This document shows positions 3,135-60,208 of a stretch of 64,000 bases of DNA, piece by piece; the first letter of the stretch is position 1; the number at the start of each line of letters is the position of its first letter. Location of the stretch: assembly GCA_964016885.1 (NCBI GenBank), contig OZ024742.1:204600001-204664000 (forward strand). The letters run 5' to 3'. The stretch comes from Eledone cirrhosa (lineage: Eukaryota). Both the position numbers and the translations under genes were made by a program. The notes below the pieces were generated by a model. That model was not told the origin of the DNA, did no database searches, and saw nothing but the letters and a program-made list of their open reading frames with translations.

Positions 3135-3180
3135 ATATAATATATATATATAATATATATAAATAATATATATATATATA

Positions 3181-4440
3181 TTGGATTAAATGCTCTGAAA
3201 TAGCGATATATATGTGAAGATAGACATAGAATATTCGAAAATATTCTGTATGTTTATAATAAACATTTTGAAGACCTAATCGCTATAGAATAGAATACGT
3301 CACGTATTACAATTAGATTCTCGATAAAAGCAAGGGAAGTAACCTACGCGTTTCATTCTTATTAGAAATCTTCAGGATTACATATCCAGTGCTTTTATCG
3401 AGAATGACACAGCTAGAGACTTATAGAATACTTAGCTGTGTACAGGAACTGGTTTGAAAGAGCGGTTGCCGGTCCGGCAGAAATTAGAAATTGGATTAAA
3501 TGCTCTGAAATAGCGATATATATGTGAAGATAGACATAGAATATTCGAAAATATTCTGTATGTTTATAATAAACATTTTGAAGACCTAATCGCTATAGAA
3601 TAGAATACGTCACGTATTACAATTAGATTCTCGATAAAAGCAAGGGAAGTAACCTACGCGTTTCATTCTTATTAGAAATCTTCAGGATTACATATCCAGT
3701 GCTTTTATCGAGAATGACACAGCTAGAGACTTATAGAATACTTAGCTGTGTACAGGAACTGGTTTGAAAGAGCGGTTGCCGGTCCGGCAGAAATTAGAAA
3801 TTGGATTAAATGCTCTGAAATAGCGATATATATGTGAAGATAGACATAGAATATTCGAAAATATTCTGTATATTTATAATAAACATTTGAAGACCTAATC
3901 GCTATAGAATAGAATACGTCACGTATTACAATTAGATTCTCGATAAAAGCAAGGGAAGTAACCTACGCGTTTCATTCTTATTAGAAATCTTCAGGATTAC
4001 ATATCCAGTGCTTTTATCGAGAATGACACAGCTATAGACTTATAGAATACTTAGCTGTGTATATTCTATAGCGATTAGGTCTTCAAAATGTTTATTATAA
4101 ACATACAGAATATTTTCGAATATTCTATGTCTATCTTCACATATATATCGCTATTTCAGAGCATTTAATCCAATTTCTAATTTCTGCCGGACCGGCAACC
4201 GCTCTTTCAAACCAGTTCCTGTACACAGCTAAGTATTCTATAAGTCTCTAGCTGTGTCATTCTCGATAAAAGCACTGGATATGTAATCCTGAAGATTTCT
4301 AATAAGAATGAAACGCGTAGGTTACTTCCTTGCTTTTATCGAGAATCTAAGTGTAATACGTGACGTATTCTATTCTATAGCGATTAGGTCTTCAAAATGT
4401 TTATTACAAACATACAGAATATTTTCGAATATTCTATGTC

Positions 4441-4442
<2 letters not shown>
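3181..4442. mobile_element. Retrozyme-like 310-bp tandem repeat: about 2.8 units (HHR on -) plus about 1.2 inverted units (HHR on +)
   Basis: ttggattaaa recurs at 3181, 3491 and 3801. Inversion junction at about 4061/4062. One HHR per unit; no ORF. Confidence 0.85.
4283..4325 (+). ncRNA. Type I hammerhead ribozyme (copies on - at 3339-3381, 3649-3691, 3958-4000)
   Basis: gtaatc-CTGAAGA-tttct aata agaat-GAAA-cgcg-TA-ggttac. Stem I is extended past an internal loop by ttctcgataaaagca/tgcttttatcgagaa. Confidence 0.88.
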
Positions 4443-4472
<30 letters not shown>

Positions 4473-5964: not shown

Positions 5965-6260
5965 TTACGATATTAAACAAATGGAAACTATATTTATAAA
6001 ACTATATTTATTTCGTTATATATATTTCTGGGATATCATATTAAAAATATGGTATGCCTTCCTCAGACAAAATACAATATACAAGCTGTTTTATAATATG
6101 ATATCCCAGAAATATATATAACGAAATGAATATGGTTTTATAAATATAGTTTCCATTTGTTTAATATCGTAAACCTACTCCAAAAACTGTTGAGTGCTTT
6201 TATATCAGTTATAAAATATTTACTCGTTGTAACCCAACAATTTTAAATAAATCTGTTGCA
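5965..6260. mobile_element. Fold-back HHR element (family of 61315-61590); HHR on - at 6009-6074
   Basis: Inverted arms 5965-6042/6095-6172 plus tail. Reverse complement: tattttgt-CTGAGGA-agg..ccatatt ttt aatatg..cca-GAAA-tatata-TA-acgaaata. Confidence 0.75.
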
Positions 6261-8677: not shown

Positions 8678-11232
8678 TAAGGCGGGTAAAATTCCCGAGA
8701 TCCATGGACGAGTTCTCTCCAGCGGTCTCTGTCTCTCATTATCGCTGCCATGTCCTGCGTCTCCAACAGACCAGTGTCTGTCCTTAGGGCATCAACATAC
8801 GTTAACCTTGGTCTTCTTCTTCTAGTGTGTCCATGTAGGGGCTCCCACATGAGCACTGAGTGCAATGTCAACTCTGGATGTCGGTGAGCATGTCCAGCTA
8901 ACCTCAGTCTCCTCGAGGAGAGTGGTATACAGATACTTGCGATCCAAGAACACAGGATCCTACACGATGAGCCCGTGAGGAGTGTGATGATTGGGAAGAG
9001 GAGCCAGCTCATCACTACATCGGCAGTGAAGAACATGACCAATGCTGCATTGGGGGGAGTGGGTTTTGTTTTCAGCACAAAAACCAGTCTATTGGTGAGG
9101 GAAATAATGCCTGTCTATCCGCGAGTGTTGAGGGTGACCTTCAATGGAAACCCAAGACTGACAGTCATCTCAGCCTATAGTCCAACCGAGGGGGACAGTT
9201 ATGTGAGTGCGGAAGAGTTCCATGAGGAGGTGTGTAGAGCTGTCAACACCACTCCGTCACAAAATATCCTGCTTGTTTGGGGGGGACTTCAATGCACATC
9301 TGAGTAAGGAGGGCAGTGAAGATCCTTGCTGGTACTTCCATAACAACACCAACCGAAATGGAAGACTACTGAGAGACACCCTGCTGGAGGCGAACTTGAT
9401 AGCGACCAACCTAAGGTTTAGGAAGAATCCGGGGAAGATGTGGACCTACATCTCAGATATGCACCTGTCCAAGTCCCAGATTGATTTCATTCTGGTGAGG
9501 AAAAAGTGGCGGAATAGTGTTCTGAACACAGAACCATACAACTATTTCAGTACACTGGGTAGTGACCACCGGCTTGTTATGAGTGAGGTCCGGGTGAGCT
9601 TAAGAAAGAGCAAGGCTCGGCCCCGGAGAGCAATCTATGACTGGGGAGCTTTCAAGGAAGATGATAAGCTACAAGAGAGGTTCACAGTGGAAGTGAGAAA
9701 CAGGTTCAGTGCTCTGTGTGGAGAGTCAGAGGAGTGAGAGATTGGATGGACTGAGGAGAGTGTGACGAGGAGGTAAGGGCACTTCACCAATGCAGTGGCG
9801 GACCCTGGTGACGATAAAAAAGAACAAAAAGACGCACGTCAGCTCTGCAAACCCAAAAGTGTGTGCAGCCAGAGAACACCTGAAAGCTGCCAAGGACCAA
9901 TTCTATGCTGATCCTACGGAGGAGAGGAAGGAGACTATAGAGGTGATGAGGGAAGAACTGTGTACCGCTTACACTGAGGCCAGAGAGGGGACACTGATAG
10001 AGAAGATCAGAAGTGTGGAGAGAGCGGTTGACAGATCTGGATGTAAGGAGAGCTGGATGATCATCAACGAGATCACAGGGGGGGGGTCTGTAACCGGGCA
10101 CTGGAGAAAGGAGTTGCCCCAAATCAGTGGAGGATCAGTAACATCGTCCCAGTGCCAAAGAAGGGAGATCTCTCTAACACCAACAACTACAGGGGGATCT
10201 CACTGACGTCACTTGTGGCAAAGACCCTCAACAGGATGATTCTTAACAGGATCCAGCCTGAGATGGAGAAGAAGCTCAGAGAGAACCAGAACGGCTTCAG
10301 AGAGGGAAGATCAACCACCAGTCACATCCTGATGCTGAGGAGGATATTAGAGGGAGCTAGAGCAAAGTGTCTTCCTGCGGTCATGGTTTTCATTGACTTT
10401 AGGAAGGCCTTTGATTCTGTGGACCGTCACTGCCTGATGAAGATCTTACAGGTTTATGGAATCCCCAAGAAGATAGTGGACCTGATATCACTGCTCTACA
10501 CAAACAGCAAAGCCCAAGTCATTACACGTGATGGGATGACAGAGTTCTTTGAGATACTGGCTGGAGTGCTCCAGGGAGATACATTGGCTCCCTACCTTTT
10601 TATCATCGTAGTGGACTATTGTATGCGCCTTGCACTGGAGAAACACCAGGACTCTGGCTTTACTGTAGCACCGGCTCAGAGCAGGAGAGTTAAGGCGAAA
10701 AAGGTATCGGATGCTGAATTTGCCGATGACATAGTTTTGGTGACAAATACAGTGAAGGAGGCAGAGGATTTGATGCGGGAGGTTGAGACTGTGTCGATGA
10801 GTGTGGGGCTGAGAATGAATGAGACTAAAACAAAATATCTGGTAGAGAATGTTGAGAAGCCAGAGGGGATCACTAATGTAGGCGGGAAGCCGCTAGAATT
10901 GGTTGAGGGCTTCCTGTATTTGGGAGCAAAGATTGGGAATACGGAAGATGATGTGGTTGAGAGGAAGGGCAAAGCCTGGGCGGCGTGCCACAGCTTGAGA
11001 TCGGTGTGGAAGTCGGACCTTCGTAAAGACCTGAAAATCCGTCTCTTCATTGGTGTAGTGGAGTCTGTGCTGCTGTACGGGTCTCAGACCTGGACACTGA
11101 CCAAGAAACTCACTCAGATGGTGTATGGGTGCTTCACGAGAATGCTGAGGATGGCTCTGAACATTAATCAGTATACACTGAGGATGAAAAAACTCAGAGC
11201 TGTATGGGAGCATCCCAAAAGTCAGCTCAAAA
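8678..11232. mobile_element. RTE-clade LINE with 5' inversion (3' end on - at 8678-8915; APE-RT body on + at 8915-11232)
   Basis: APE motifs (SAYSPT, GDFNAH, QIDFIL, SDHRL) and RT motifs (NYRGISL, FIDFRKAFDSV, GVLQGDTLAP, FADD). C-terminus RRLRLAGH..HPE..WEP is on the opposite strand. (TAGA)n tail. Confidence 0.9.
8975..11232 (+). pseudogene. Frameshifted APE endonuclease-reverse transcriptase ORF
   Basis: ORF pieces 8975-9307, 9207-9737, 9790-10206, 10152-11342. Confidence 0.88.
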
Positions 11233-11396
11233 GAATATGTATATATATATTATATATATATATAATATATATATATTTATTAAATAACAGATTAAACTTT
11301 AAGCAAAGAATCGCTGCTTTCACCCTTAACGGGATCTTCTGAAACTAACAAAGTCAATCTGTAAACGCAGAATATATATATTATATTGTTATACTT

Positions 11397-11851: not shown

Positions 11852-11906
11852 ACTGCTATATATAATTCAGTGACAGCCATCTTTGGCTGTGACCTCTTCA
11901 GGCAGT
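11852..11906 (-). ncRNA. Hammerhead ribozyme variant in the PLE 3' end
   Basis: Reverse complement: actgc-CTGAAGA-ggtc acagcca aaga tggctgt cact-GAAT-tatata-TA-gcagt, then AATAAA. Confidence 0.7.
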
Positions 11907-13096
11907 TTGAATTAGTATGGTATAGACAAGTACATATGTTGTTGAGGTGTATAATATTGTCAATACTCTGATATGCCCAGTTCCTGGTTGGGTTGTTATT
12001 TCACTGAGGAACTGGTATCATATGAATTCAAACAAACGAATTTCAGTGTCAAAGGTCCTCTTCTCCTCTCATTGGTCAGTTATTAGAACATTCCTCATTC
12101 TAAGTGTTGTTATTGTTGGAGTTAGCTTAAAAAATTGATAAAATAGTAGAAGGGACAAGGTGTTAAAGGAACAAAATAACAAACAAAGTGTCAAACTTCC
12201 CATTGGTCAGTTCTGAGAGCATTCCTCACTCAGAAGTCTATAGAATTCTTTCTGGGGTGAGGCTCCCTGTAGTGTTTTTGTTTGCTATTGTTAAGTACAT
12301 TTGACATCTACCATTATTCTGGTAGTGTTGTTGGTGTTGCGGTCAGCTTATATCTTGCTGCTGCTAACAATTTAGAAGTATCCAGTGTGTGTTTTTTTCT
12401 TAATCCCTCCTGCCACCATCTCTCATAGTGGTGGGGGGGGGGGTTCTTCCATGTATATGAAGAAATATAAGGCAATAAATGAAGAAAACAGAAAATAAAT
12501 AAATAATATAATAAAATAATTAATATAATTTGTATAATTTGAAAATAAATAAATAAAGAAAGAATCAATGAAAAATTGGTGAAAAAGTAATGAAAATGAA
12601 TATGGAGAAGTGAAAAATAATGTAGGATAAAGTGTGTGTGTGCTATAACCAATCTCAAGGTCAGAAATATGTTGGATAGATTGGTATGAGGCCAAGATGT
12701 TAAGATAAGATAAGATAATCAAACTAAATGTGTTTGTGTTATAATCAATCTCAACTTAAAAATAAATATAAAGTGATACAGTGAAGAGGGCAGAAAACAA
12801 ATAACAAATTAATAAAGAGAAATCAAGATTTAAAATTGGAACTTGAAAATCAGAAATCTAGTAAATTAAAAAGTGTTTGTGTTATATAGATGTTGGCCAA
12901 ATTATAATGGCTGTGTCCGATTCTATCTCTAGGCTATCCTGGTGTCTGCTCAGCCTGGGTTGTTCCCTTGAGGGGAGTTCACAACCTAGGGTGTTGTTAC
13001 TGCCCATATAGCTTGAAGGAGGTCTGGCCGAGAGGTGTTTTCATGTTCTGTAGAAGTCCCTATAGCTTGAGGGGAGTTCACATCTTCTTGTGTTGC

Positions 13097-14933
13097 TACT
13101 GTCCATATATCTTGAGAAAGGTCCCGGCTCTAAGGTGTCTGCATGTCCCGAAGAAGTCGGTTCTGGGGTTTATAAGGCCGCTTCCACCTCTTAGTATCTC
13201 GAGGGTCTCGTTCAGGCATAGTTTGCATATGCAAGATCCCCCTTTATCGGGTTGTACTTTCCTGATTATGTACCAGGCCAGAGAGCATGGGGTCCTGTCC
13301 AGCTTAAGCTTCCAGATCAGGTCGGAGAGAGCTGTGCTTTTCGTTTTGGCCTCCTTGAATGAATGGCGATGGTTGTACCAGCGGTCTTTAAAGCTCGTTG
13401 ATGTGGCTCCTATGTAGAGGTGTTCGGAGTTGGGTGTTTTAACCCTACAACCGTATACTAGATTCTTCTTGAGGCATTCATTACCAAGGGGGCATGATTC
13501 GGGGTTTCTGCAGTTGCAGAGGGTGGTCGGCCTCTGCGTGCCTAGATTAGTGTTCCCGTTATGTGTTACATGTTGGTCTTTCCCCAGGCTCGGTGGGGGG
13601 TCCTCGGGTCTGTTTGGGTTCTTGGGTGGGCTCTGGGTCCCCCCTTCCCTCCTTTCACATGGTTCTGCTGAGTGTTTGTATAGCCATCTTCAGGTTGTGT
13701 GTAGTTTTTAAGCCTACTTCTGTTGATGCTAGCTATGTGTTGGACCAAATTTCTCGTGGTGGAATACGAGAGCTTCACAGTGTGTCGGTTGAAGATCCTG
13801 TGGTATCTGTAGTCCCTCGGGAAGCATTTGTCAAGTGCTCCAAAGAATAATCGGGCCAAGCTTTTCTTTAGGGCCGCTGAGTAGGGTGGGTTGAACCACG
13901 TGATTTGTCGGTGTCTCATCCTATATGTGTGGGTCGGGGGCGTCGTGATTTGTTGGAGATTTGTTGGGTTGCTGGTGGTTTCCGCACTGTTGCTTCCCCT
14001 TTGGGCTCTATGCTTTTTGTTATCTTCGCGGCCCGAATTTGTGGGGTGGTCGTTGTACGCCCCAGGAGATCCATCGTGGGGTGGTCGCCCCCCCCCCCTA
14101 CGTGTCTTGCGGTTGGGGTCGTCTGTCCTGGGGTGGTTAGCGTCACGCCTGAGACTGCTACTCATATTGTGCTCCATCTCGTGGTCAAGCGCACTAGTCC
14201 CCACCGCCCGTGTGGTGGTGTCGGGCACATGGTTCCTATTTGATTCTGCTCTGCCTGTATTGTTAGGGCTCGCCCCCCCCCCCCGGGCAACGCGGTTGTG
14301 GGTGTCTGTTGGGCTATCCCCATCCCGGCTTTTCGGACTATATGTTATATTTTGGCCATGTGCCACCTTCTTTAGAGCTGCGTTGTAATATTCCGCGTGG
14401 TTATTGAATATTACCTTACTTGCGGACAGGCTGGAGATCCTGTCCGAGACACTCTTCACCACTGCCTTGGTTATGGATCTAGGGTGGTTTGATTTGGCGT
14501 TAACATATACGAGTTTCTCGTTGGGCTTGTGGTAGGGGTAGTATTGCTCGGTGTCCAGGTTTAGGGTGGTGTCTAGGAAGTTAACTACCTTCCTATTTGG
14601 GTCTATTTCTATGCTGAGCCCATGGTTCTTAAAGAAATGGCGAATACGCCTCCTCATACTCTCCAACATATTGGTGCTGTGGTTATGTACTGTGAATAGA
14701 GCATCGTCACAATATAATCCGCCGCCCAGGCAGGGGATTTCATCTTTTATCTGCTTCAGCAGGTAGAGCCCAACGAGGTCCGTTACCTGCGCTGAGTCGC
14801 TGGAGCCCATCGTGATGTCAAAGTTATTTGGCCAATCGCTCCTGGTCCAAAGGTCTCCATCGAAGCGGATTAAGGTCTTTCTTGCGGCGTGGATGATGCT
14901 CACCTCCTCTCGGGTTAGGTCCGTATTGAACAT
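13097..14933 (-). pseudogene. PLE reverse transcriptase plus GIY-YIG endonuclease (interrupted)
   Basis: DITMGS, YCDD, FLDTTL, SNHPRSI, WFNPPYS; then, translated by hand, CNCRNPESCPLGNECLKKNLVYGC..LYIGATSTSFKDRWYNH..CKLCLNE. Confidence 0.88.
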
Positions 14934-15002
14934 CCTAAAAATAGGGCCTTATTAAGTATTATATATATAGCAGTAATAAACGAAGCTAAATTTTAATCAT
15001 TT

Positions 15003-17186: not shown

Positions 17187-17783
17187 TTACATTTATTTAC
17201 ATTTAATTACATTTAATTATACATATAATTATAATTATACATTTGATTTTAATTATATCTTATATTATATTATTTTAATTTAGTCTATGTTATTTGATTT
17301 TAGTTTACCTTATTTTATCTTATTTTACGATTATACTATATTATGTTCTATGTATATAATTTTTAATTTTTAATTTTATATTATTTTATCTCATTCCTTA
17401 CCCTATATTTTATATTTTATATGTAAGTTTGTTATGTATTTCTTTGTATTTCTTTTTATATATATTATAAGTCTGTTTTTTACCTATTTTTTACCTATTT
17501 TTTACCTACTCTTACCTAATCCCATTATCTTATCTACTCTTGTCTGTTCTCTTATCCATGTGTCTACTCTTGTCTGTTCTCTTATCCATGTGTATGCTTG
17601 TATGTAACTATATGTTGACAGCACACCGCCCAACTGTGACTGATAGCACCCCTTATTTTTATTTTTATTTTTATTTTTACTTTTATTTTTATTTTTATTC
17701 TTATCCTCTATCATCTATTATTACCTTTCATTCTTCAATGTCTTGGATTTGTTATTGCTTGTATGGTATGTAATTAACCTTTA

Positions 17784-17829
17784 TGCTCTGATGAGTCCCA
17801 CTTATAGTGCGGATGAAACAATGTTAGCA
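17784..17829 (+). ncRNA. Type I hammerhead at the 3' end of non-coding element 16800-17870; sister copy 48394-48438 (-)
   Basis: tgct-CTGATGA-gtcc cac ttata gtg cggat-GAAA-caatg-TT-agca. Confidence 0.8.
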
Positions 17830-17910
17830 AGTAAAGATATGCATATGCTATAAGCGTTCTTTGTTATTTATTTATTATATATATATATATTATATATATA
17901 TATATTATAT

Positions 17911-17952
<42 letters not shown>

Positions 17953-18042
17953 ATATTATATATATATATATAATATATATATATATTATATATATATATA
18001 TATTATATATATATATATTATATATATATATATATATTATAT

Positions 18043-19548
18043 ATATCACGATAAATTAACGGAGGCATAGGCCGTCGTTATTCCCTGTAAATAATGTGCT
18101 CAAAGGGGAGATCCTGAGCCCTTTAAAATATAATATGTTGAGAAGGTAACACACCAGAGAGAGATATATAGTGTGTTATCAATAATACAGGGAAAAAAAC
18201 CACCAGTGTATGGAATCTATAACCTATGAAAGGCAGACTATAGACATGATAATTAAAAATATAAATTAAAGCGTAAATAAATACCTCTATAACTATATAA
18301 CACACGTACAAATCCAAAGATATGTTTCACAAAAAAATTTGTTGAAAGAAATGGTTTAGTCTCGGTTCATCAGCGTGTGTAAGGCCATACATTTCAGACA
18401 ACACTAAGAGAATTTTACAATTGACTGTCCAGCTATACGTGGGAGAGAGAAGTCACAGCGTGTTTACGGGCAGTGAACCAGTGGATCTCTTCCCCTTTGA
18501 CCACATTATTTACAGGGAATAACGACGGCCTATGCCTCCGTTAATTTATCGTGATATTTCGCTCCTAATAACAGTCTTTCCATCTCTGTTTGGTTGAGCA
18601 CACTTCTCTGAGTGGCTTTGGGCTGCCCTTTCTAGCAGTTCGTCTCTCAGAGGCCACTGGTTCACTGCCCTTAAACACGCTGTGACTTCTCTCTCCCACG
18701 TGTAGCTGGACAGTCAATTGTAAAATTCTCTTAGTGTTGTCTGAAATGTATGGCCTTACACACGCTGATGAACCGAGACTAGACCATTTCTTTCAACAAA
18801 TTTTTTGGTGAAACATATCTTTGGATTTGTACATGTGTTATATAGTTATAGAGGTATTTATTTACGCTTTAATTTATATTTTTAATTATCGTGTCTATAG
18901 TCTGCCTTTCATGGGTTATAGATTCCATACACTGGTGGGTTTTTTCCCTGTATTATTGATAACACACTATATATATCTCTCTCGTGTGTTACCTTCGCAA
19001 CATATTATATTTTAAAGGGCTCAGGATCTCTTCCCCTTTGAGCACATTATTTACAGGGAATAACGACGGCCTATGCCTCCGTTAATTTATCGTGATATTT
19101 CGCTCCTAATAACAGTCTTTCCATCTCTGTTTGGTTGAGCACACTTCTCTGAGTGGCTTTGGGCTGCCCTTTCTAGCAGTTCGTCTCTCAGATTCCACTG
19201 GTTCACTGCCCTTAAACACGCTGTGACTTCTCTCTCCCACGTGGAGCTGGACAGTCAATTGTAAAATTCTCTTAGTGTTGTCTGAAATGTATGGCCTTAC
19301 ACACGCTGATGAACCGAGACTAGACCATTTCTTTCAACAAATTTTTTGGTGAAACATATCTTTGGATTTGTACGTGTGTTATATAGTTATAGAGGTATTT
19401 ATTTACGCTTTAATTTATATTTTTAATTATCGTGTCTATAGTCTGCCTTTCATAGGTTATAGATTCCATACACTGGTGGTTTTTTTCCCTGTATTATTGA
19501 TAACACACTATATATCTCTCTCTCGTGTGTTACCTTCTCAACATATTA
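18043..19548. mobile_element. Retrozyme-like 541-bp repeat: about 0.8 unit inverted plus about 2 direct units
   Basis: 18483-19023 is repeated at +541. 18043-18484 is its reverse complement. One HHR per unit. Confidence 0.85.
19299..19379 (+). ncRNA. Type I hammerhead ribozyme (copies 18758-18838 on +, 18300-18380 on -)
   Basis: acacacg-CTGATGA-acc...ggt-GAAA-ca tatc tttg gatt tg-TA-cgtgtgt: perfect 7-bp stem I, GUA site. Confidence 0.88.
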
Positions 19549-19868
19549 TATATTATATATATATACATTATATATATATATTATATATATATATATTATA
19601 TATATATATATTATATATATATATATAATATATATTATATATATCTATATATATATATAGTAAATATATATATATTATATATATATATATATATTATATA
19701 TATATATATAATATATATTATATATATATATAATATATATATAATATATATATATATATATTATATATATCGTTAACTACTTTTCCTATCAGAATGAACT
19801 CATGAAAAGATTCGAAGGAAACACCATAAGAAATATACAGACCCGGCGCATAGATGTACCAGCTATAG

Positions 19869-20045: not shown

Positions 20046-20391
20046 TTTTTTTTTTTTTTCCTTCTTTCTTTTTTCACTTCTTTCCCTTTAATATTTTTTT
20101 TTTTAATCTCTACCTTTTTATTCACTTTTTATCTCTTCATATTATCTTCCTTTTACTTTTTTATTATGTTTTAACCATTGTTTCTATTTTTTTATTTTGT
20201 GTGCCATCAATTGTATCTGCATCTTGTGAGATCTGCTTGTGCCCTAGCATTTAGCTGTGGTGCTTAACAACCCAGCATGTACTCTCTCCTTATTTGCCAT
20301 CTCCGATCTCCCTATCTTTACCCTCTATTGTATTCCGATTGTTCGTGTGACTAAGCTTGGTAGAGCTTATACTCAGCACTGTGTTTATTAA

Positions 20392-20436
20392 GCTCTGATG
20401 TTTCCTACCCAACGGTATGGATGAAACATTGTAAGC
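20392..20436 (+). ncRNA. Degenerate hammerhead in PLE-like tail (about 20050-20600)
   Basis: gct-CTGATGT-ttcc tacc caac ggta tggat-GAAA-cattg-TA-agc, then AATAAA and CATTGAG. Confidence 0.65.
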
Positions 20437-21702
20437 AAATAAAAACTGTTTGATTATGTAAGCGTTCTTTGGTTTCTTTTACATATAACGACTCTGTTCT
20501 CGTACATTGAGCAAATACAATACCGTCAAAATATAACACGGTGCGTGTGTGTTTATACACATGCACTCCGTGCTATTCGTACGTAAATAAATACTTATAT
20601 ACGTATAGAAATTACATGAATCAAAGTTCTGTTCAAATCATTTATTCGCTTACAATTGTTTCTTCCAAACCGAGGTTTGGAGTCTTCGGAGCAATTTTTC
20701 AATGATTGTTTACATACATGACCTCCTTTCCAACACAAGAGACATACAGAAACTTATGTATACGTTGATGCACAGTGGGTTGACATCCATTATAATATTT
20801 TAGCATGGCAATTTACATTCAAAGATTAAAGTCATATTAAAAGAAAACAAAAATAAAGTTAAAATACAGTTAAAATACAACATTGGCAGTTTACGAAGAT
20901 AATGCAAGAGGATAGTTAGAAGTAGTTAGTGTATGCAATAGTTACACGTGGGGCATGCATGTGTGTTTTATTTATATAAGATTATAGTGCGGCAGGGTGT
21001 TATATGTAATACAAGCACTTTAAGCGGGCAATCAAGAGTATTATGGGGGTTGTATTGGTAATGTATTTTTTATATGTATGATATAGAAGCTTGTGTGCAG
21101 AGAAATATTAAAAATATTAAAAATGAGAAGCAAAACAATGTTATGGTTTTCGTATACACCACCATTTTCACAATCCAGGAAACGTAATATATAGATTATA
21201 TGTCCTTCACATAATCTACGATGATTCAATATTGGATGCTTGATGAATTATGTTAGAATATTATAGCTTGTTGTTCTTTAATCCAATTTTATAGAGCAGG
21301 TTGTTTTTGTTGCGAGAATTAACATCGTATTATTTTCCGGAAGTGTGTGTGTGATTAAGGGGAGTTAATGCGTGAGGGGAGGTAATAAGCTGATTTCTAT
21401 AACTAAATTTATTATCCTAATGTACATTAAATGGTGTCTCAAATGAGTCTCTATCATATAAGGTTATAAACAGTTTCTAAATTTAAGTATCCTATCTATA
21501 AATTACAGTGTAGTCTATCAAGAGGTACTAAAGGTGTTCATATTAGGATGATTACCCTCTATCATAGAGTGCCACAACCGAATATTCCACATGAAGAGCC
21601 AGATCCCCAAATCAATGATCTTTGTAAGTGTAGTCTACCCGCAGAACCTTCACTTCTACTTATAGACTATAAAAATTCAATATAGAAAGAACTAGAAAAC
21701 TA

Positions 21703-23035
21703 TTGCACAAGACATTCAAAAACTATAACCTTAGTATCACCATGGACAAAAACACTAAAAAGGTTAACTTCCTGTACGCCACCCTCTGCCTAGACTCAAA
21801 GATATATACACCTTTCCATAAACCTAACGAAAAACTCATTTACGTAGATACCAAGTCTAACCACCCTAGATCAATATTAAACTCTATCTCTAAGGGAGTA
21901 TCCAATAGAATCTCTAATCTATCATATGACGTAAACATATTTAGCAAAAACTCGCAATATTATAATCAGGCATTAGCTAGATCAGGCCATAATATAGAGA
22001 TCGAGTTCCTACCTACAAAAACACATAGCTACAACATTATTTCGCACAATATGTCCATGAGGAAATTTAGTAATAAGAATAGCAACCACACACACACTAA
22101 TACGGAGGATGCCATCAAAAGTAACCCACACCACAGAAATTACCATAGTACCATACAAAGAAACAACTCACCAGACATAAAAAACAAAAATAGAAGAAGA
22201 AATAATACATTTTTCAACCCTCCTTTCAATCTAAACGTCTCTACCAACCTACCTAGGGCTTTCTTCTCACTACTAGATAAAAACTTCCCATCTGGCCACA
22301 AGTACCATAGCCTTTTAAACAAAAAGACTATTAAAATCTCCTACTCTACTACGCCTAACATAGCATACCACATAGCTAGTAGCAATAAAAGAAAAATTAA
22401 TTCTTACTTCCAACAAACTAAATCACAACAGACGATAAACCTTCAAAATAACATTATATCAACTAACCCTAATAACAATAGAAATAATAGTAATAGCACT
22501 AGTGTAAGCAATAACGCTGGGAAAGACAACCCCCATAACCATAATCCTATAGCTACCATCCAGACTTCTACACAACATAATAACCGGCAGACTAACACCC
22601 AGAATAATTGTAACTGTAGATCAAATAGAACCTGCCCTTTAGATAAAAAATACTTAATCAAGGATATCATATACTCATGCACCGTCACAACTAGCAACTC
22701 TTCTAAAACCTATATAGGCTCTACTTCAAACTGCTTCAAAACCAGATACAATTCGCACCTCCACTCTTTCAAAAAACAGTCTAGCCAACTCCACTTCACT
22801 ATCTAGCTACATACACTATCTAAAAACTAAAAATAAATCTTATACACTTAAATGGGAAGTGATAGGTAACGCGACATCGTACAAACCACCTAATAAATTT
22901 TGTAACCTCTGTCTACTAGAGACCCATACTATTATCTTCTCAAACCATAACCTCCTTAATAAAAAATCAGAAGTGTTCGCGTCTTGCCAGCACCGCTTCC
23001 GACACTCCTTCCAAAACTTTAAACCCAATATATAA
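21703..23035 (+). pseudogene. PLE RT thumb, linker and GIY-YIG endonuclease remnant
   Basis: FHKPNEKLIYV..SNHPRSI, FFNPPFN, KISYSTTPN, CNCRSNRTCPL..IIYSC..TYIGSTSNCFKTRYNSH; frameshift near 22780. Confidence 0.88.
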
Positions 23036-24514
23036 CAATGTCAAACTTGAACCCGTCACCACCTCTAGCAACAAACCTCAAGGGCACACCTTACACCACA
23101 TCTCCACACTCATTGATCCACTTTAACACAAATAGTGACATCCTTCTTGAACCTTTTACCCTAGAGATATCCCCATGTACATCTACTTTTTATATATTTG
23201 CCTTCAATTACTTAGACTACATTACACCACTATATAATTAATGTAAACTTTAAACACTGAATTGGTTGTGCTAATGTTGTTCTGTGTATAGAGTACCTTC
23301 ATTGGATAAATGGAAGATTAATTAATTTATTAACATAAAAGAGCTATATAACCTATATGCTGCGTGCAATGAATTATGTACAAGTGATGTATGAGTTATA
23401 CATACATGTATGACTTGATGGTCAGATTAGTGACATTGTAAGTGAGAATTGATCTCTGGTCTACCCTAGTGATATTTAACTTTGCCATGCAATCAGACAT
23501 GCACTGACCCAGAGCTTACCAGGAGTTGTATATAGAAGTGATTCTAATAAAACCCTGCCAGGTTCTGCGGGTAGACTACACTTACAAAGATCATTGATTT
23601 GGGGATCTGGCTCTTCATGTGGAATATTCGGTTGTGGCACTCTATGATAGAGGGTAATCATCCTAATATGAACACCTTTAGTACTTCTTGATAGACTACA
23701 CTGTAATTTATAGATAGGATACTTAAATTTAGAAACTGTTTATAACCTTATATGATAGAGACTCATTTGAGACACCATTTAATGTACATTAGGATAATAA
23801 ATTTAGTTATAGAAATCAGCTTATTACCTCCCCTCACGCATTAACTCCCCTTAATCACACACACACTTCCGGAAAATAATACGATGTTAATTCTCGCAAC
23901 AAAAACAACCTGCTCTATAAAATTGGATTAAAGAACAACAAGCTATAATATTCTAACATAATTCATCAAGCATCCAATATTGAATCATCGTAGATTATGT
24001 GAAGGACATATAATCTATATATTACGTTTCCTGGATTGTGAAAATGGTGGTGTATACGAAAACCATAACATTGTTTTGCTTCTCATTTTTAATATTTTTA
24101 ATATTTCTCTGCACACAAGCTTCTATATCATACATATAAAAAATACATTACCAATACAACCCCCATAATACTCTTGATTGCCCGCTTAAAGTGCTTGTAT
24201 TACATATAACACCCTGCCTCACTATAATCTTATATAAATAAGACACACATGCATGCCCCACGTGTAACTATTGCATACACTAACTACTTCTAACTATCCT
24301 CTTGCATTATCTTCGTAAACTGCCAATGTTGTATTTTAACTGTATTTTAACTTTATTTTTGTTTTCTTTTAATATGACTTTAATCTTTGAATGTAAATTG
24401 CCATGCTAAAATATTATAATGGATGTCAACCCACTGTGCATCAACATATACATATGTTTCTGTATGTCTCTTGTGTTGGAAAGGAGGCCATGTATGTAAA
24501 CAATCATTGAAAAA

Positions 24515-28949: not shown

Positions 28950-29757
28950 TCAGCTGTCCAGAGGATATGGACATATATTTACGGCTATAGATGTCAGCAG
29001 TCCAGCAGATGTCACCTGTCCAGCGGTATGTACATTTATATAGTTATAGAGGTTGTGGACATATAGTTATAGATGTCAGCTGTCCAGAAGATGTTAGCTG
29101 TCCAGCAGCTCTCCAGCAGATGTCCATCTATACATGTCAGGTATCCAGCAGATGTGGACATATATATACAGCTATAAATGTCGGCTGTCCAGCAGTGTGG
29201 ACATTTATGTAGTTATAGATGTCAAGATATGATGACAATATATGATGCCTATTCACAAAATTTCAGCAAATTTTAATTTTTCATGCATTACATTTTATAT
29301 TGAGTAATATTGAAATGTAGAGTTTTTCTCCATAAATTATATCAATGATTTAAAATCAATCATCATTTTCTTACAAAAAAAATGCTTGTATATATATATA
29401 CAGTTATAGATGTCAGCTGTCCACCAGATATTGACATATATATATATATATATATACAGCTACGTATGTCGGCTGTCCTCGAGATATGGACATGTATATA
29501 TAGTTATTGATGTCAGCTGTCCACCAGATGTGGACACACACACATTATATATATATATATAAGTTATTCCGGGTTGAATCGAGGATAACCACAGTAAGTA
29601 AGGTACTCAATACATAGCAGAGTATAAATGTTTTAATATAGAAAAGGTTCTACAGGACTAGAATTGTTTAATTCGTGAGAAATCATCAGGAAGCTGTATA
29701 TATATATATATATATATATATGCAGATATAGATGTCAACTATCCACCAGATGTGAAC

Positions 29758-29907: not shown

Positions 29908-29911
<4 letters not shown>

Positions 29912-30433
29912 CGTTTCTGAATTTGTTTAGCAAGATTCTTTATCTGAAAACGTGTGTTGAAACCGTTATACTTTGGGAGGGTCATGTTGCCAATAAGAAA
30001 CACACGCACCAGTTGCTTTCACTTCAATTTATTATAATAAATTTATAAATTTAGGAATTTATAAATTTCCGGTTGGTTGGTTGGTTGGTTCCACAACCAG
30101 ATGGTTGTTTATATATTGTCAAAGTTCTTTTGTCACACATTATGTGACCTCTTCAGTGACTGGGATTTTTTTCTTTGTTCATCTTCAGAAGATGGCGTAG
30201 GACAGAACAAAGGAGAGGCACAAAAACAAAGAAAAGAATCCCCAGTCACTGAAGAGGTCACAGAATGTGTGACGAAAGAACTTTGACAATATATAAACAA
30301 CCATCTGGTTGTGGAACGAACCAACCAACTGGAAATTTATAAATTCCTAAATTTATAAATTTATTATAATAAATTGAAGTGAAAGCAACTGGTGCGTGTG
30401 TTTCTTATTGGCAACATGACACTCCCAAAGTAT

Positions 30434-30440
<7 letters not shown>
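29908..30440. mobile_element. Fold-back non-coding derivative of the PLE at 46172-47852; HHRs at 30245-30287 (+) and 30118-30160 (-)
   Basis: Inverted arms about 29965-30180/30225-30437. gtca-CTGAAGA-g gtcaca gaatg tgtgac-GAAA-gaac-TT-tgac. Confidence 0.8.
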
Positions 30441-31177: not shown

Positions 31178-31752
31178 GTTGGTGCTACTGGTAACATGTA
31201 TCCCAGTACAACCTGTCTCATGGTCGGGTCGTTGGCGACTAAACTGGCAACCCCACCAAGGTTTCTTGGTGGGGAGGGTGACTTTGGACATCCTGCAGGA
31301 CTAAAAACAAAACCTGTCAAAGAGCAAAGGACCTAATCACCGGGAGAGATGACTCCTTAGCCTTTGTCAAGGCAGAATTCTAGGAGAAGGAAAACTCTGA
31401 TATAAAACCTGCAACCCTGATGGTATCCAATGATGTTGACTTGTTCTTCTTTTTCGTAAATATCATATTGGTTAAGAGAGTGGGACTGGCTTTGTGCAGT
31501 GCCTTTGCTCACTATAAAAGCTTCACGGCACAGGCACTGCTTTATATCTGGAGATCTCTCTGCACTTGTCGTCACATGGTACCATGGGCCCTGCACTATG
31601 TGTCAACAATTGTCACAAGTGTAGTGTTTGTACCAGAGTTTTCAAGTCGCTGGCTGGACTAAAAAGTCACACCCGTTCAGTGCATTGGTAGGGGTTCTCC
31701 TACATGGATATAAAGTAGTGGCCGTACTCGAAAACGAGTTGGCAGCCACCAT
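31178..31752 (+). mobile_element. RTE-derived bipartite non-autonomous retroposon (about 600 bp)
   Basis: RTE-5'UTR-like ctaggagaaggaaaactctga. The 3' part encodes a C2H2 remnant [20 protein letters not shown], then hairpin ctcgaaaacgag and a (TATG)n tail. Confidence 0.75.
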
Positions 31753-32490
31753 GTATGTATGTATGTATGTGTATCAGGTCGCTCTTCGGCGCTACTAGTA
31801 ATATGTAAGCCAGTACAACCTGTCCATGGTCAGGTAGTCGGCGGCTACACCGGCAACCCTACCAAACTTACTTGGTGAGGAGGATGAATTTGGACACCCT
31901 GCGGGATGAAAAAACAAAATCCGTCAAAGGCGGAGGAACTCAGGAGAGTCAACGGCTATCCAATAATTTTTATTTAATTTTTTTTTTTTTTTTATTGTAG
32001 CGAGAGATTCCTAATCTTCATAAAACCTGCGACTTCGTTTGCATCCAATGATGTAGACCAATTATTCTTTTTAGGTAAATGCATTCGATGTTCAGACAGC
32101 GGGATTGGCCCCGTGCAAAGCGTTTCCTCACTTAAAATAACATCAAACACAGGCATCGTTTGATATGTGATATTTTTGCGATGCATGTCATTGCTGACCA
32201 TAGGCAAATCCCTAGCAGGACTAGAAAGCCACGTCCGTGACGCCCATGTTTGAGTATCAAGCGCTGGCATTACTCGAATTTGAGTTGCAGCCATCATGCA
32301 TGCATGCATGTATGTGCTAAATATAAACATATACAAGGTGTAGTAGTTTGCCTGGAGCATTATGGAATATGAAGATATAATGTATGTATATGTATATATT
32401 CTTTTATTATTTTAGTGATTTCAGGCATTAGACTTTGGCCATGCTGAAGCACCACTTTAAAGTGATTTAGTTGAATGTTCCAACCCAATA

Positions 32491-42431: not shown

Positions 42432-43315
42432 TACATACACATACATATACATACATACATATACATATTTTTTCAAAAATTGCAAAGAATATATTAACTA
42501 GGTATACATCCAAAACACATCCCATTCTATGATTACATGACACTCTGCAATCCGTCTGTATAAGGATACTAATTTTAAGCCAATTAAATTAAATTTTTAG
42601 GTTGACTAAATTTAAAACCAAATTATAAATATATTTCTAAAATGTATATTAATTAGGTCTATAATACTAAAAATTATTTCTCTGTCATTGGATACACGAT
42701 ATTTTGTTATATTTTATCTGTAAAGGAATTTTAATAAAAGGTTTAAATAAATTAAAATTAATCTATAAATTAAATTACTAAGTATATATTAGTAATATTT
42801 AAAGGTTTTTCACAATTTATGATTACACAATATTTTATATTCTCATCTGTAGTAGAATTTTAATTAAATTAAATTTATAGGTTAACTAACATTTAAATTA
42901 AATTAATTTCTAAAATAATGTTATTAATTAGGTTTATAATATTTAAATGTTTTTTTTAGTTTATGATTACACGATATAATTAATTCCTGTCGTTTATTTA
43001 ATAGGATATCCTTAGATTTCATTATTTCAAATAGTTCTTGGGAACATAATCTACATTCATTTCTATTATATTGATAAGGGGTGGCTCTTTTGAGCACACT
43101 CCAGGTCAAATCATATTGTATATTCTTATTTTTATAACTATTGATTTTTTCTGCTAGAGATGTTGTATTAGCCAGTGCGGCATTTTTAAAACTATGCTTG
43201 TGGGTATTAAACCTTGTCTTAAAATTGTTAGAGGTAGCTCCTATATATGAGCAAATAGAATCTTTAGTTTTAACATTACATTTATAGACTATGTTGTTAA
43301 CAAGACAATTCCCTA
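38992..43315 (-). mobile_element. 5'-truncated PLE: GIY-YIG remnant, about 3.9-kb 3' region, HHR and tail
   Basis: 42924-43315: [47 protein letters not shown] on the same strand. Continuity of the intervening DNA is inferred. Confidence 0.6.
39188..39340 (-). ncRNA. Hammerhead ribozyme with stem II region of about 115 nt
   Basis: Reverse complement: tcattattt-CTGAAGA-cggcgtatatgtgt...acacatatatatccta-GAAA-cgatcg-TT-aaataatga (perfect 9-bp stem I). Confidence 0.8.
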
Positions 43316-43870: not shown

Positions 43871-45989
43871 TAGCAGATTTACCCGGCGTTTCTCGGGGTT
43901 GGAAATTATGCTAGGAAGTAAAAGAAGAACATTATTTGTCCCCAACCTGTCAAAATAAGCAGAAGTCTTCAATAATTAATGCAAACGAATATTTAGTGCA
44001 ATCTTTCTACACATAAAACTATGCTGATAATGAAGGAAAACACTGAACAGGATGTAGTTATACAAATGATTAAAGACAATACACGTTGCAAATCTGTAAA
44101 AAAACACGCAGTTTTGTTAAAGTACAAAAAGTTGTAATGAAAGCAGAGTTGTATACAAACAAAAAAACAATGAGAGTAGAATAAGAGAAAATCTATTCTT
44201 TGAGAGCATCCTTTGCTGTGTATGGTTAAATTTTTAACTTATAATCCCAAATATCCTGCATGACATATTCATTGGTATGTTTTGTAATGAGTAAGGTGAA
44301 GTCAAGGCAGAGCTGTAATAAGTTTTTTTGTTAACACTAAAGCACTTCAGGATAGACGATATTCTTTGTTTTTCTTTTCAGAACAAACGCAAAGAGATTA
44401 TCTCGACTGCCAACTCGTGAGCAGGCAACGTAGAATTGTCCGTGCGAAAAGCAAGGTTCATCCAAGTGAATTCCAGCGACGGACAGAGTTTGACCTTGCG
44501 ACTTGTTTATGGACATCGCAAAGGCAATACGAAGGGGAAATTGGGTTCGGCGAAAGGAGACCGGAGTATCCACGCCTGATGTAGTCAGGCTAATTTTTGT
44601 TATTATCACATCCTCGCCTTTTCCACATCCAGATAGAATGGTAGCGTCAATACTAAGTGGAGACAGTTTTTTAACCACAAGGCGTGTACCATTGCATAGT
44701 TTTGGAGGAGTGATATTTCTCAGCAAAATAACTGGTGTTCCCTCTTTCAGAACCAATGTATTAGGAGGTAAACCAGGAGGAATTAAAGAATTTAGAAATT
44801 CAACTGGATAATTGACCGTAATCCTGTGGATCACATACAGTATCAATAGATTTATATATCCGTGGACATCCAGGAAGAAGCTGAAGAAGCTGATCGTTAA
44901 TACAGCTAACCGTGATATTTATGGGTCCAAGAATGGCTCTTTCGCATAGCCAATCAAAATTCGTATAGTTATCACGCAAGTTCGGGAATACACTCGCCTT
45001 GAGATCATCGACAGTTTCAACTACATTGCAGATGTGATCAATTGCTATGTGTCCATCTGTATCCGGAGGTAGGTTACCATCTCCTATTGTAAGAATGTCT
45101 CCAGAAAATGTTGATGACAGAGGGTCCCCATGCAACCTTGCACGCATGTTGGTAGTTAATCTTAATGATGTCACTTGTCGCCACAATGGTGAAGACTTAA
45201 GACATGCATTTACCGCATCTGCTCTTGTTCCTTTCGGTATTATAGGAAGAGTCTGTCTGAAGTCTCCTGATAGCAGAAGGGCGACACCCCCCATAACATC
45301 ACTGCAATCCCGTATGTCTTGCAAAGTCTTTGGTTATATGACAAGTAGGAGTTTCCAATTTTGCCAAATCAAGGAGCAATTTAAAAAATGAATGTGCCGT
45401 CCTTCCACCAGGGAGCAAAGTTGCTGCCTTTCATATTTTGTACTGTCTCTGCAGATCTTGCTGCAGCAGTAGCCGTAGCATCCATAGCAAGGCGTGTTTC
45501 ACGTAGCTCTGAAGTCTCTGCAGCTCGTGCTGCAGCAGTTGCTTTAGCGTTATTGGTTCGACGAACTAACCGACGCTCAGCGGCGGACAAAGATGTTGCA
45601 ATAACTGTACTCACCGCATTTAGTGATTGTCTATTTTTGGTTATAGGCGGAGCGTCGTTTACACGCATTGTTTTCTTCGACCGATAGCCAATATGTGCAT
45701 ACTTTCTTTTACGGGGCATATTTGGTGAAAAGGTTATCTCCCTTTTTTAAAAGGATTATTAATAAAGTTTGTTATCTCCCTTACATCAATTTTTCTACCA
45801 ATAAATTTGATATCGATTTTTATTGCTCTACGTGGGGCGATTTAAAAAGTGTTTGTGATGTGACAATCTTAGCGACCTGTGCAACGTGCACAGAAAATTT
45901 GGTCAAATTCAGTTGGTAATTGTGAAAGCCTTATGCATGCAAAGTTGTACACAGACACACACACATCGTCGCTTTTATATATATAAAGA
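43870..45989 (-). mobile_element. Internally deleted Helitron with both termini
   Basis: a|TCtttatatata 5' end; cccgagaaacgccggg hairpin plus CTAG|t 3' end. N-terminal ORF 45381-45719 is joined to Pif1-like helicase fragments. Confidence 0.9.
44337..45330 (-). pseudogene. Helitron Pif1-like helicase C-terminal part (frameshifted)
   Basis: [60 protein letters not shown]. Confidence 0.92.
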
Positions 45990-46171: not shown

Positions 46172-47849
46172 ATATTGTTATACATTGGGAGGGTCATGTT
46201 GCCAATAAGAAACACACGCACAAGTTGCTTTCACTTCAGTTTATTATATATTTATAAATTTATAAATTTACAAATCTACAAACTTATAAATTTCTGGTTG
46301 GCTGGTTGGTTCCACAACCAGATAGTTGTTTATATATAGTCATAGTCCTTTCGTCACACACTCTGTGACCTCTTCAGTGACTGGGATTCCTTTCTTTGTT
46401 TCTGTGTCTTTCCTTTCTTCTATCCTACGCCATTTTGTTTCTGTGTGTATGTTGTGTGCTCAGTTTGCGCATGCGCCACATCCGGGTGTCTGTGTGTGTT
46501 TGTGTTCATTTATCTATTTGTTTATTTATTTATTTATTTATTGTTGGTTGGTTGTTTGTTCTATGTGTGTGTGTGTTTTCATTTTGTCCTGTGTGTGTGT
46601 TTTCATTTTGTCCTTAATTGTAAGTTGTTTGTTCTATGTGTGTGTGTGTTTTCATTTTGTCCTGTGTGTGTTTTCATTTTGTCCTTAATTGTAAGTTGTG
46701 ATGTTGCTGTTCCACTCATATTTTCTATTTAATTTTGGTTGTAATTCTTTTATGCTTACTGCCTCTGTAATTTGCCTAAACATTGCATCCTTTCTGTGTG
46801 TGGATTCTATTTTTATTTCTATGTTGTCTAATCTACCCTTGTGTTCTATCTTAGCATGTTGGTAGAGCACAGATGATTCTTTATTATCTTGAAGGTCTCG
46901 CCAGTGTTCATTTATTTGTTCCCTATACTACGAGCTGTCTCACCTATGTACACTATATTTTTGTTTCTACATTGTCCTTCAGTACATCTTATGCTATACA
47001 CTACATTTCTAGTTTTACAGTTAATATGGGGGCTTATTTTACAGGTTATACATTTCTTATCTATACATGAGGGTCTTTGGAACGGGTATGTCTTGCTAAT
47101 AAGTGTTTTTACAGAGGTACCTGGTCTTTCTACTATCTTAATATTGAGTTTATGTTTATTTAGGGCCCTTCTAAATTTGTAGGCTAGTTCGCTTCTAGGG
47201 GTTGTATTGATGAACATTACACTCTGGTATTTATTGCTATCATACCATGAGTTTATTCTATTGGCCTTGTACCTAGTTCTTTCTATTCTATTCCAAAATT
47301 TGCTCCTATACAAGGGGCAGGTCCCATTTATGTCATTATTTACCATTTTTTCCCGTTTGGTTCTGGCTCCTTTATACACTCTGATTCTATTTCTCTGACT
47401 GTAGCCAGAGAACTGCAACCAACAATAAATAAATAAATAAATAAACAAATAGATAAATGAACACAAACACACACAGACACCCGGATGTGGCGCATGCGCA
47501 AACTGAGCACACAACACATACACAGAAACAAAATGGCGTAGGATAGAAGAAAGGAAAGACACAGAAACAAAGAAAAGAATCCCCAGTCACTGAAGAGGTC
47601 ACAGAGTGTGTGACGAAAGGACTATGACTATATATAAACAACTATCTGGTTGTGGAACCAACCAACCAACCAGAAATTTATAAGTTTGTAGATTTGTAAA
47701 TTTATAAATTTATAAATATATAATAAATTGAAGTGAAAGCAACTGGTGCATGTGTTTCTTATTGGCAACATGACCCTCCCAAAGTATAACAATATCGGTT
47801 TCAACAGACGATTTCAGATAAAGAATCTTGCTAAACAAATTCAGAAACG

Positions 47850-47852
<3 letters not shown>
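46172..47852 (-). mobile_element. PLE GIY-YIG remnant flanked by inverted pseudo-LTRs; HHRs at 46338-46382 (-) and 47585-47629 (+)
   Basis: CKTRNVVYSIRC..VYIGETARS..EAVSIKELQPKLN. Arms about 46174-46552/47415-47794. agtca-CTGAAGA-ggtcaca gagtg tgtgac-GAAA-ggac-TA-tgact. Confidence 0.88.
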
Positions 47853-48339: not shown

Positions 48340-48771
48340 CATATATATATAATCAACAACAAAGAACGCCTATAGCATATGCATATCTTTACTTGCTAAC
48401 ATTGTTTCATCCGCACTATAGTGGGACTCATCAGAGCATAAAGGTTAATTACATATTACAAGCAATAACAAATCCAAGACATTGAAGAAATAAAGAATAA
48501 AAATACTAAAAGACAAAAAATAAAAGATAAAAAATAAAAATAAAAAATATTGAGGAAGTAAAAATAAAAATCGAGCTAACCTTATACTGCCTATTGGATA
48601 AGTGGAGTGTTATACACCCCTGATCCTCTCCCTTATATACTATACATATATATACATATATATATATATATGTACATATATATATGTATATATACATACA
48701 TATATATGTCTTTATACATATATATATACATACATATATATATATACATACATAAATACATATATATATAT

Positions 48772-49463: not shown

Positions 49464-53021
<3,558 letters not shown>

Positions 53022-59983: not shown

Positions 59984-60014
<31 letters not shown>

Positions 60015-60016
<2 letters not shown>

Positions 60017-60208
60017 GTTTTAATATAGAAGAGATTCTACAGGACTAGAACTGTTTCATTCATTAGAAATCATCAGGATTCCTGATGATTTCTAATGAAT
60101 GAAACAGTTCTAGTCCTGTAGAATCTCTTCTATATTAAAACTATTATACTCTGCTATGTATTGAGTACCTTACTTACTGTGGTTACCTCCGATTCAACCC
60201 GGAATAAC
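60015..60208 (+). mobile_element. Fold-back HHR element; HHR at 60076-60126
   Basis: Palindrome 60015-60143 plus tail. ggattc-CTGATGA-tttc taat gaat-GAAA-cag ttctagtc ctg-TA-gaatct. Confidence 0.8.

What the first reader, a model, noticed from the sequence alone, without database searches (positions are those of the whole stretch)
18043..19548. Larger 541-nt retrozyme-like unit with a full-stem hammerhead
Seen: two tandem units plus an inverted permuted arm. The HHR has a 7-bp stem I, a non-palindromic stem III and a loop II of about 30 nt. Each copy has private mutations (stem I in 18758, stem II in 18300) while 19299 is intact. Inference: a monomer-active ribozyme in a second, unrelated circRNA family, longer than the 310-nt one.
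Basis: partly seen in the sequence, partly recalled or inferred. Interest (0 to 1): 0.72.

Follow-up and report, generated by a model that had tools for sequence, protein, structure and literature searches.

The report
Penelope-type hammerhead repeat, 541 bases
This is one copy of an abundant, non-coding 541-base jumping repeat that carries a hammerhead self-cutting RNA motif and has the insertion layout of Penelope-like transposons, so it is likely a new family of a known kind (animal retrozymes); whether its oddly built ribozyme cuts, or the RNA forms circles, is untested.

Summary
Observation confirmed: 1.98 tandem 541-nt units (+, 18483-19551) joined head-to-head to an inverted 442-nt arm (18043-18484). 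Both 3' ends lie in (TA)n. There are three type I hammerhead copies, and the stated private mutations are present. The layout (partial tandem, inverted 5'-truncated arm, extension at one end only, TA target) is the published Penelope-like (PLE) insertion pattern. Five of five two-armed insertions examined in the window show it, beside Hydra-like PLE coding fragments. Public runs show a high-copy, ORF-less family; both 3' ends recur in other organisms (1-2 contigs each) while 5' stops are scattered. Best reading: a non-autonomous PLE, i.e. a non-LTR retrozyme. Published units span 51-972 bp, so 541 is ordinary. 'Monomer-active' is unproven: the predicted active fold is about 0.3% of the ensemble, and relatives favour another helix II (7-8-nt loop behind a 20-nt insert). 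No RNA data were available, and the proposed junction search cannot show circles because tandem DNA has the same junction. This scan already noted the same architecture for other families in this genome, but not this family. New member of a known kind.

The parts
17865..18046 (.). (TA)n microsatellite, left target flank
18043..18484 (-). Inverted, 5'-truncated arm (unit positions 18654-19098); carries the long 3' end
18043..18127 (-). 3' extension (unit positions 19011-19098, 88 nt) present at this end only; equivalent of the PLE tail
   Evidence: tail described in PMC8557442
18300..18380 (-). Hammerhead copy C; C-G pair of helix II broken in either register
18483..18484 (.). Head-to-head inversion joint with 2-nt GG microhomology
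18483..19023 (+). Unit 1, 541 nt, non-coding
18758..18838 (+). Hammerhead copy A; G18833A (CpG-type change) breaks stem I pair 2
19024..19551 (+). Unit 2, 528 nt; carries the short 3' end (unit position 19010)
19290..19391 (+). Hammerhead copy B (core and stems 19299-19379) with distal stem I; predicted cut 19372/19373; two alternative helix II pairings
19543..19770 (.). (TA)n microsatellite, right target flank

Best explanation
This is one insertion of a high-copy, ORF-less 541-nt repeat with a type I hammerhead motif, likely a non-autonomous Penelope-like element (non-LTR retrozyme) that a PLE reverse transcriptase/GIY-YIG endonuclease, likely of the (TA)n-targeting Hydra clade, would have pasted into a TA microsatellite. 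Shown: the layout, the TA flanks, the non-coding unit, the family's abundance and tandem form, and the recurrence of the two 3' ends. Inferred: the endonuclease nicks both strands of (TA)n, and each free 3' end primes reverse transcription at one of two preferred AT-ending sites 88 nt apart on the RNA. The two cDNAs stop at variable points and are joined head to head through a 2-nt microhomology. The cDNAs run through three hammerhead cut sites, so the template was either a religated circle (about 50%) or an uncut multimeric transcript (about 50%). After insertion each copy picked up roughly 1% private changes (1-6 per 358 nt), which damaged two of the three ribozymes. Self-cleavage of copy 19299 as a monomer is possible but untested (about 35-40%).
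For: Layout. The published PLE pattern is partial tandem + inverted 5'-truncated copy + tail at one end (PMC8557442; PMC8969392). Five of 5 two-armed insertions examined in the window have one short and one long 3' end in (TA)n, offsets 41-88 nt. Long end: in organism B one contig stops aligning at 19098 and goes on with AT repeat, and a second contig ends at 19098. Short end: in organism C one contig stops aligning at 19010 with 5 letters left over. Five further opposite-strand joints occur in other copies; 12 stop positions in all (window included) are scattered over the unit. Abundance: 1699 contigs laid in X1 and 1919-2461 reads in each of three RAD runs. Tandem joint seen in 7 of 8 runs laid. 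Coding PLE fragments in the window: GIY-YIG and CxCx5C linker in 2 of 3 fragments. Three homologues read carry RWK/RWR and DKT motifs, matching the Hydra clade, which inserts in (TA)n and bears hammerheads. Animal retrozymes as non-autonomous PLEs, 51-972 bp: preprint 10.64898/2026.07.22.740005.
Against: No coding partner sharing sequence with the unit was found: blastn and nhmmer against the window hit only the element itself, and no whole genome is held. The fixed-end evidence outside the window is only 1-2 contigs per end, and RAD reads did not list these ends among the loose ends shown (287 not shown). Head-to-head orientation was checked on one of the five outside joints (X6 record 16). 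The 88-nt extension is longer than the 30-40 bp tail described for coding PLEs. The 541 circle is only modestly structured (z -2.3, 1 of 60 shuffles as low; minus strand z -2.2; paired fraction 0.56 against 0.57), unlike the 310-nt unit (z -5.3) and the 'highly self-paired' published retrozyme circles (PMC7229834).
Confidence: 0.85

Rival explanations
1. One reading: an autonomous-folding, monomer-active hammerhead that releases 541-nt monomers which accumulate as circRNA, the circle being the transposition template.
For: Intact core and long stems I and III. Relatives pair stem III fully (CAGAUC/GAUUUG), as in monomer-active PLE hammerheads with a large helix III (PMC4209133). Both + units share allele C18983 where the inverted arm and most relatives have G; two laps round one circle would give this, but it is a single site.
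Against: Predicted active fold about 0.3% of the ensemble for copy B. Helix II pair probability is 0.01-0.02 (long loop) or up to 0.08 (other register), with the core mostly paired in the circle; the models ignore tertiary contacts and co-transcriptional folding. Only 1 of 9 predicted Xenopus retrozymes cleaved in vitro. Only 1 of 12 5' stops lies within 3 nt of the cut site (0.16 expected), so there is no footprint of cut linear monomers.
Confidence: 0.3
2. The unit is merely the pseudo-LTR of a coding PLE, and this locus is a doubly truncated insertion of such an element, not a self-propagating non-coding family.
For: Fixed 3' ends, an inverted arm and a hammerhead are pLTR hallmarks. Coding PLE fragments lie nearby. 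Loose ends are shown for only 30 letters, so a link to an ORF cannot be excluded.
Against: The unit runs on into itself with no room for an ORF, here and in contigs of two other organisms (X4 records 9 and 12; X6 record 14). The best-supported loose ends read, by eye, as diverged versions of the unit itself.
Confidence: 0.08
3. A decayed satellite or fold-back repeat amplified at DNA level (unequal crossover, template switch), whose hammerhead is an inherited fossil.
For: A tandem pair could arise by local duplication; units 1 and 2 share C18983 against the arm. Private changes include CpG-type decay.
Against: Otherwise star-like divergence (unit1-unit2 6, arm-unit2 7, arm-unit1 11 differences in 358 nt). 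Both 3' ends sit exactly at TA runs, and four other insertions share the pattern. Changes in relatives keep pairing in stem III, distal stem I and helix II.
Confidence: 0.05

Closest known systems
Metazoan non-LTR retrozymes (Cervera and de la Pena 2020, PMC7229834; Li, Clavereau and Pollet 2026, 10.64898/2026.07.22.740005)
   Same: Non-coding tandem unit, GC 39%, one type I hammerhead per unit, at least two consecutive units, co-occurring with PLEs; size inside the 51-972 bp range.
   Different: Longer than the 170-400 nt circles shown by northern blot. Core halves are 38 nt apart, and stem III is 6 bp rather than 1-2 bp with a palindromic loop. The circle is weakly structured. Expression and circularity are untested.
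PLE insertions and pseudo-LTRs, Hydra clade (Craig et al. 2021, PMC8557442)
   Same: Partial tandem, inverted 5'-truncated arm, extension at one end, (TA)n target, hammerhead near the 3' end.
   Different: No RT or GIY-YIG ORF; extension 88 nt against 30-40 bp; partner element not identified.
PLE hammerheads with a large helix III in fungi and protists (Cervera and de la Pena 2014, PMC4209133) and 'HHR_half_core' motifs with 35-50 nt spacing in Naiads (PMC8557442)
   Same: Long helix III predicted to allow monomer activity; wide spacing of the two core halves.
   Different: Animal host; two alternative helix II pairings, one of which places about 20 nt between A9 and 10.1. No activity data.

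Membership tests
Type I hammerhead ribozyme | CUGANGA, GAAA and NUH^ core closed by stem I | tested here: met
   (0 of 20,000 strict, 2 of 20,000 relaxed shuffles); Rfam models do not match
Type I hammerhead ribozyme | Helix II directly joining A9 and G12, usually G10.1-C11.1 | tested here: inconclusive
   Window copies allow a 7-pair helix with an A-U base and 24-nt loop, or 4 pairs with a U.U base behind a 20-nt insert; relatives with both strands visible keep the second
Type I hammerhead ribozyme | Self-cleavage | not testable with these tools
   Folding models give the active form about 0.3% of the ensemble
Non-LTR retrozyme | Non-coding tandem units, each with a type I hammerhead | tested here: met
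Non-LTR retrozyme | Multi-copy family in the genome | tested here: met
   1699 contigs in X1; about 2000 reads in each of 3 RAD runs; copy number not measured
Non-LTR retrozyme | Highly self-paired predicted circle | tested here: inconclusive
   z -2.3, paired fraction equal to shuffles; 310-nt unit z -5.3
Non-LTR retrozyme | Expressed as linear and circular monomer RNA | not testable with these tools
   No RNA run was available to lay
PLE-mobilised insertion | Partial tandem plus inverted 5'-truncated copy | tested here: met
   five more opposite-strand joints
PLE-mobilised insertion | Defined 3' ends with an extension at one end; microsatellite target | tested here: met
   (1-2 outside contigs per end)
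Autonomous PLE | RT and GIY-YIG ORF between pLTRs | tested here: not met
   Longest stop-free frame 75 codons
Non-autonomous derivative of a specific Hydra-clade PLE | Sequence shared with the termini of a coding PLE | tested here: inconclusive
   None within the window; genome not held

The most novel reading that the evidence does not exclude
The family carries a four-way-junction hammerhead: helix II is the short GUCAA/UUGAC-type stem with a 7-8-nt loop, and a 20-nt hairpin is inserted between A9 and position 10.1. This pairing and the long-loop pairing use the same 3' strand, so the RNA would switch between a cutting and a silent form, keeping the 541-nt circle intact while a Hydra-clade RT copies round it.
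Probability: 0.15. Interest if true: 0.6.

Novelty: new member of a known kind. Interest (0 to 1): 0.3.

Why it matters
As filed, it adds one more retrozyme or non-autonomous PLE family to a genome that holds many, and shows the PLE insertion signature on it; that supports a link already proposed in print. The one feature of wider interest is the hammerhead's helix II region. If an insert of about 20 nt at A9/10.1 is tolerated, or acts as a switch, standard descriptors and Rfam miss a class of animal hammerheads, and it would offer a testable answer to how retrozyme circles avoid cutting themselves, which PMC7229834 leaves open.

Tried and rejected
Whole-genome search: no genome is held. Rfam: no hit at gathering score; at E<=10 only a chance AT-rich pestivirus match. 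Metagenome scans: 0 hits for a 22-nt body pattern; 13 of 13 hits for an 18-nt hammerhead pattern extend no further than 22 nt and lack the second core half, so they are chance. Pfam found nothing on 4 of 4 PLE homologues scanned, so the clade was read from motifs by eye. Summed contig depth was not used as copy number. The depth step at 19091-19128 in X1 and X5 fits a 3' end but also coincides with an indel-rich site, so it was not counted. RAD read ends fall at TTAA-like cut sites and say nothing on element ends. Enrichment of 5' stops at the cleavage site was not found (1 of 12). Three of five end-offset rows were a script error (a sequence compared with itself) and were replaced. Relationship to the 310-nt unit: rejected. 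An internal 8-nt repeat of the stem I 3' strand (18984-18991, in a hairpin with 18960-18967) could be a decoy, but in the circle with the intact copy stem I forms at P about 0.9, so it was dropped. No earlier scan note matched this sequence or lay near it.

Full report
Setting. The window is eukaryotic, AT-microsatellite-rich DNA full of transposon remains. No whole genome is held. Earlier scan notes call the host a cephalopod; I did not check this.

Observation. The element runs from 18043 to 19551. The plus arm holds unit 1 (18483-19023) and unit 2 (19024-19551, 528 nt), which differ at 9 positions. The minus arm, 18043-18484, is the reverse complement of 18654-19098 with a 3-nt deletion. 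The arms meet head to head over a shared GG. Both 3' ends run into (TA)n, at unit positions 19010 and 19098, 88 nt apart. The longest stop-free frame is 75 codons, and there is no similarity to the 310-nt unit.

The hammerhead. Copy 19299 has stem I of 7 pairs, an internal loop and 6 further pairs (19290-19391), CUGAUGA, GAAA 38 nt later, stem III with 6 of 7 positions paired, and GUA^C at 19372/19373. Two of 20,000 shuffles gave a relaxed motif and none a strict one, though the strict descriptor was set after the fact. Rfam does not recognise it.

Activity is doubtful on paper. The drawn fold of copy B is -16.1 kcal/mol against an ensemble of -20.4; the constrained ensemble is about 0.3% of the whole. 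Copies A and C are far lower. In a circle holding copy B, stem I forms (P about 0.9) but helix II does not (0.01-0.08) and much of the core is paired. These models ignore tertiary contacts and co-transcriptional folding, so they lower but do not exclude activity. In the 2026 preprint 1 of 9 predicted retrozymes cleaved.

Helix II may be drawn wrongly. Relatives keep stem III fully paired (CAGAUC/GAUUUG) and improve the distal stem I (18752 G>A is the majority allele). Next to GAAA, a subfamily seen in three RAD runs (158, 135 and 136 reads, agreement 0.89-0.96, possibly few loci) pairs GUCAA with UUGAC around a 7-nt loop. Fourteen contigs of X1 and one of X5 pair GUCA with UGGC. G at 18792 is in 119 of 212, 65 of 139 and 48 of 97 aligned RAD reads. 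In the one relative where both strands can be read (X6 record 15, one contig of depth 3, reasoned from tables 3 and 4) this pairing has 5 pairs with G10.1-C11.1, whereas the long-loop pairing has an A.C base and 3 pairs.

That register puts 20 nt, able to form a small hairpin, between A9 and 10.1. Against it: in the window copies its base is U.U (tolerated in some natural hammerheads, PMC3088659, and axolotl HHR_Amex2), it is 3 kcal/mol worse than the long-loop form, no two-sided compensatory change is shown, the 5' strand of the RAD subfamily is not visible, and ACC at 18772-18774 looks conserved, which suits the long-loop form. The register is therefore open. Two literature searches and the passages read gave no natural hammerhead with such an insert; this is a thin search. 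Core halves 35-50 nt apart were noted in Naiad PLEs.

The family. Eleven listed runs hold part of the stretch, three of them half or more of its words. Laid on one unit, X1 gave 1699 contigs and three RAD runs gave 2461, 1919 and 1956 reads. The tandem joint appears in 7 of the 8 runs laid (not X7, which covers a third of the unit). In organism B one contig stops aligning at 19098 and continues with AT repeat, and another ends there; in organism C one contig stops aligning at 19010 with 5 letters over. Five other opposite-strand joints were listed. With the window's own joint that gives 12 stop positions, scattered, with 1 within 3 nt of the cut site against 0.16 expected. So 3' ends look fixed and 5' ends variable, on small numbers.

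Mechanism. Partial tandem, inverted 5'-truncated copy, a tail at one end and microsatellite targets are the described marks of PLE insertion (PMC8557442; PMC8969392). Five of five two-armed insertions examined in the window, from four families, have one short and one long 3' end in (TA)n, 41-88 nt apart. The window also holds three coding PLE fragments with a C-terminal GIY-YIG region. Two show the CxCx5C linker, and the three homologues read carry RWK or RWR and DKT, which fits the Hydra clade, known to insert in (TA)n and to carry hammerheads. None shares DNA with the 541 unit, so the actual partner is unknown.

I infer two-ended target-primed reverse transcription. The three copies share minority alleles (18752 G, 18964 A) and otherwise diverge like a star (6, 7 and 11 differences in 358 nt), so they stem from one event. 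The cDNAs pass three cut sites, so the template was a circle or an uncut multimer. One site leans to separate templates per arm: both plus units have C18983, while the arm and most relatives have G. The circle is only modestly structured (z -2.3; the 310-nt unit -5.3).

Comparison and novelty. Non-LTR retrozymes are non-coding tandem units with type I hammerheads, shown as 170-400-nt circles in coral, mussel and axolotl (PMC7229834). A 2026 preprint finds consensus lengths of 51-972 bp and argues they are non-autonomous PLEs. Long-helix-III, monomer-active PLE hammerheads are known from fungi and protists (PMC4209133). This element meets the sequence-level criteria; expression, cleavage and circularity could not be tested. 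It is a new member of a known kind. Earlier notes of this scan describe the same two-armed layout for 310-, 422-, 467- and 478-nt families in this genome and a 493-nt long-stem-II family elsewhere; none matched this sequence. My reading was fixed before those look-ups, and they are not independent support.

Papers seen: 10.64898/2026.07.22.740005 parts 1-3 of 5; PMC7229834 passages, parts 2-3 of 6 and Discussion; PMC8557442 passages and section 11; PMC4209133 parts 1-2 of 4; PMC6765202, PMC3088659 and PMC8969392 passages only. No supplements were read; hammerhead drawings in them could bear on whether the wide-core variant is already described. Hammerhead position numbering is partly recalled.

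Noticed in passing
window 3180-4457: 310-nt hammerhead family: 2.8 tandem units on the minus strand plus an inverted arm, ends 41 nt apart in (TA)n; its circle folds strongly (z -5.3).
   Followed up: partly
window 29910-30437 and 46176-47851: Another short family with a hammerhead core (CUGAAGA...GAAA), two-armed, with the same short and long ends in both insertions (offsets 54 and 60 nt).
   Followed up: partly
window about 11860-11901, minus strand: About 1.2 kb downstream of the coding PLE fragment 13096-14948 lies a decayed motif sharing 15 nt (core plus start of helix II) with the 29910-30437 family; seen by eye, a possible link between a coding PLE and a short hammerhead family.
   Followed up: no
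window 17718-17863, 48360-48500, about 20390-20470: Short hammerhead family with a 1-2-bp stem III (dimer type); the first copy shares the TA array with the finding's left end.
   Followed up: no
window 60009-60208, 29563-29692; 6025-6066, 61403-61444: Two more small families with hammerhead-like cores; the first is two-armed with ends 68 nt apart.
   Followed up: partly
window 13096-14948 (-), 21673-23035 (+), 42945-43307 (-): Frameshifted or truncated Hydra-like PLE RT/GIY-YIG fragments; the second sits between 772-bp inverted repeats (20878-21649, 23560-24331, 99.6% identical).
   Followed up: partly
window 8888-11342, 55698-59040, 44337-45333: Broken LINE-type endonuclease/RT frames and PIF1 helicase fragments (Helitron-like).
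   Followed up: no
window 31180-31963, 49532-53018, 59331-59947: A roughly 600-nt, 47% GC repeat family flanked by (ATAC)n-type arrays, some copies inverted; no hammerhead was found in it by the scans used.
   Followed up: no
window 18960-18991 (and +541): An 8-pair hairpin whose 3' strand repeats 8 nt of the hammerhead's stem I 3' strand; a TATA-like run lies in its loop.
   Followed up: partly
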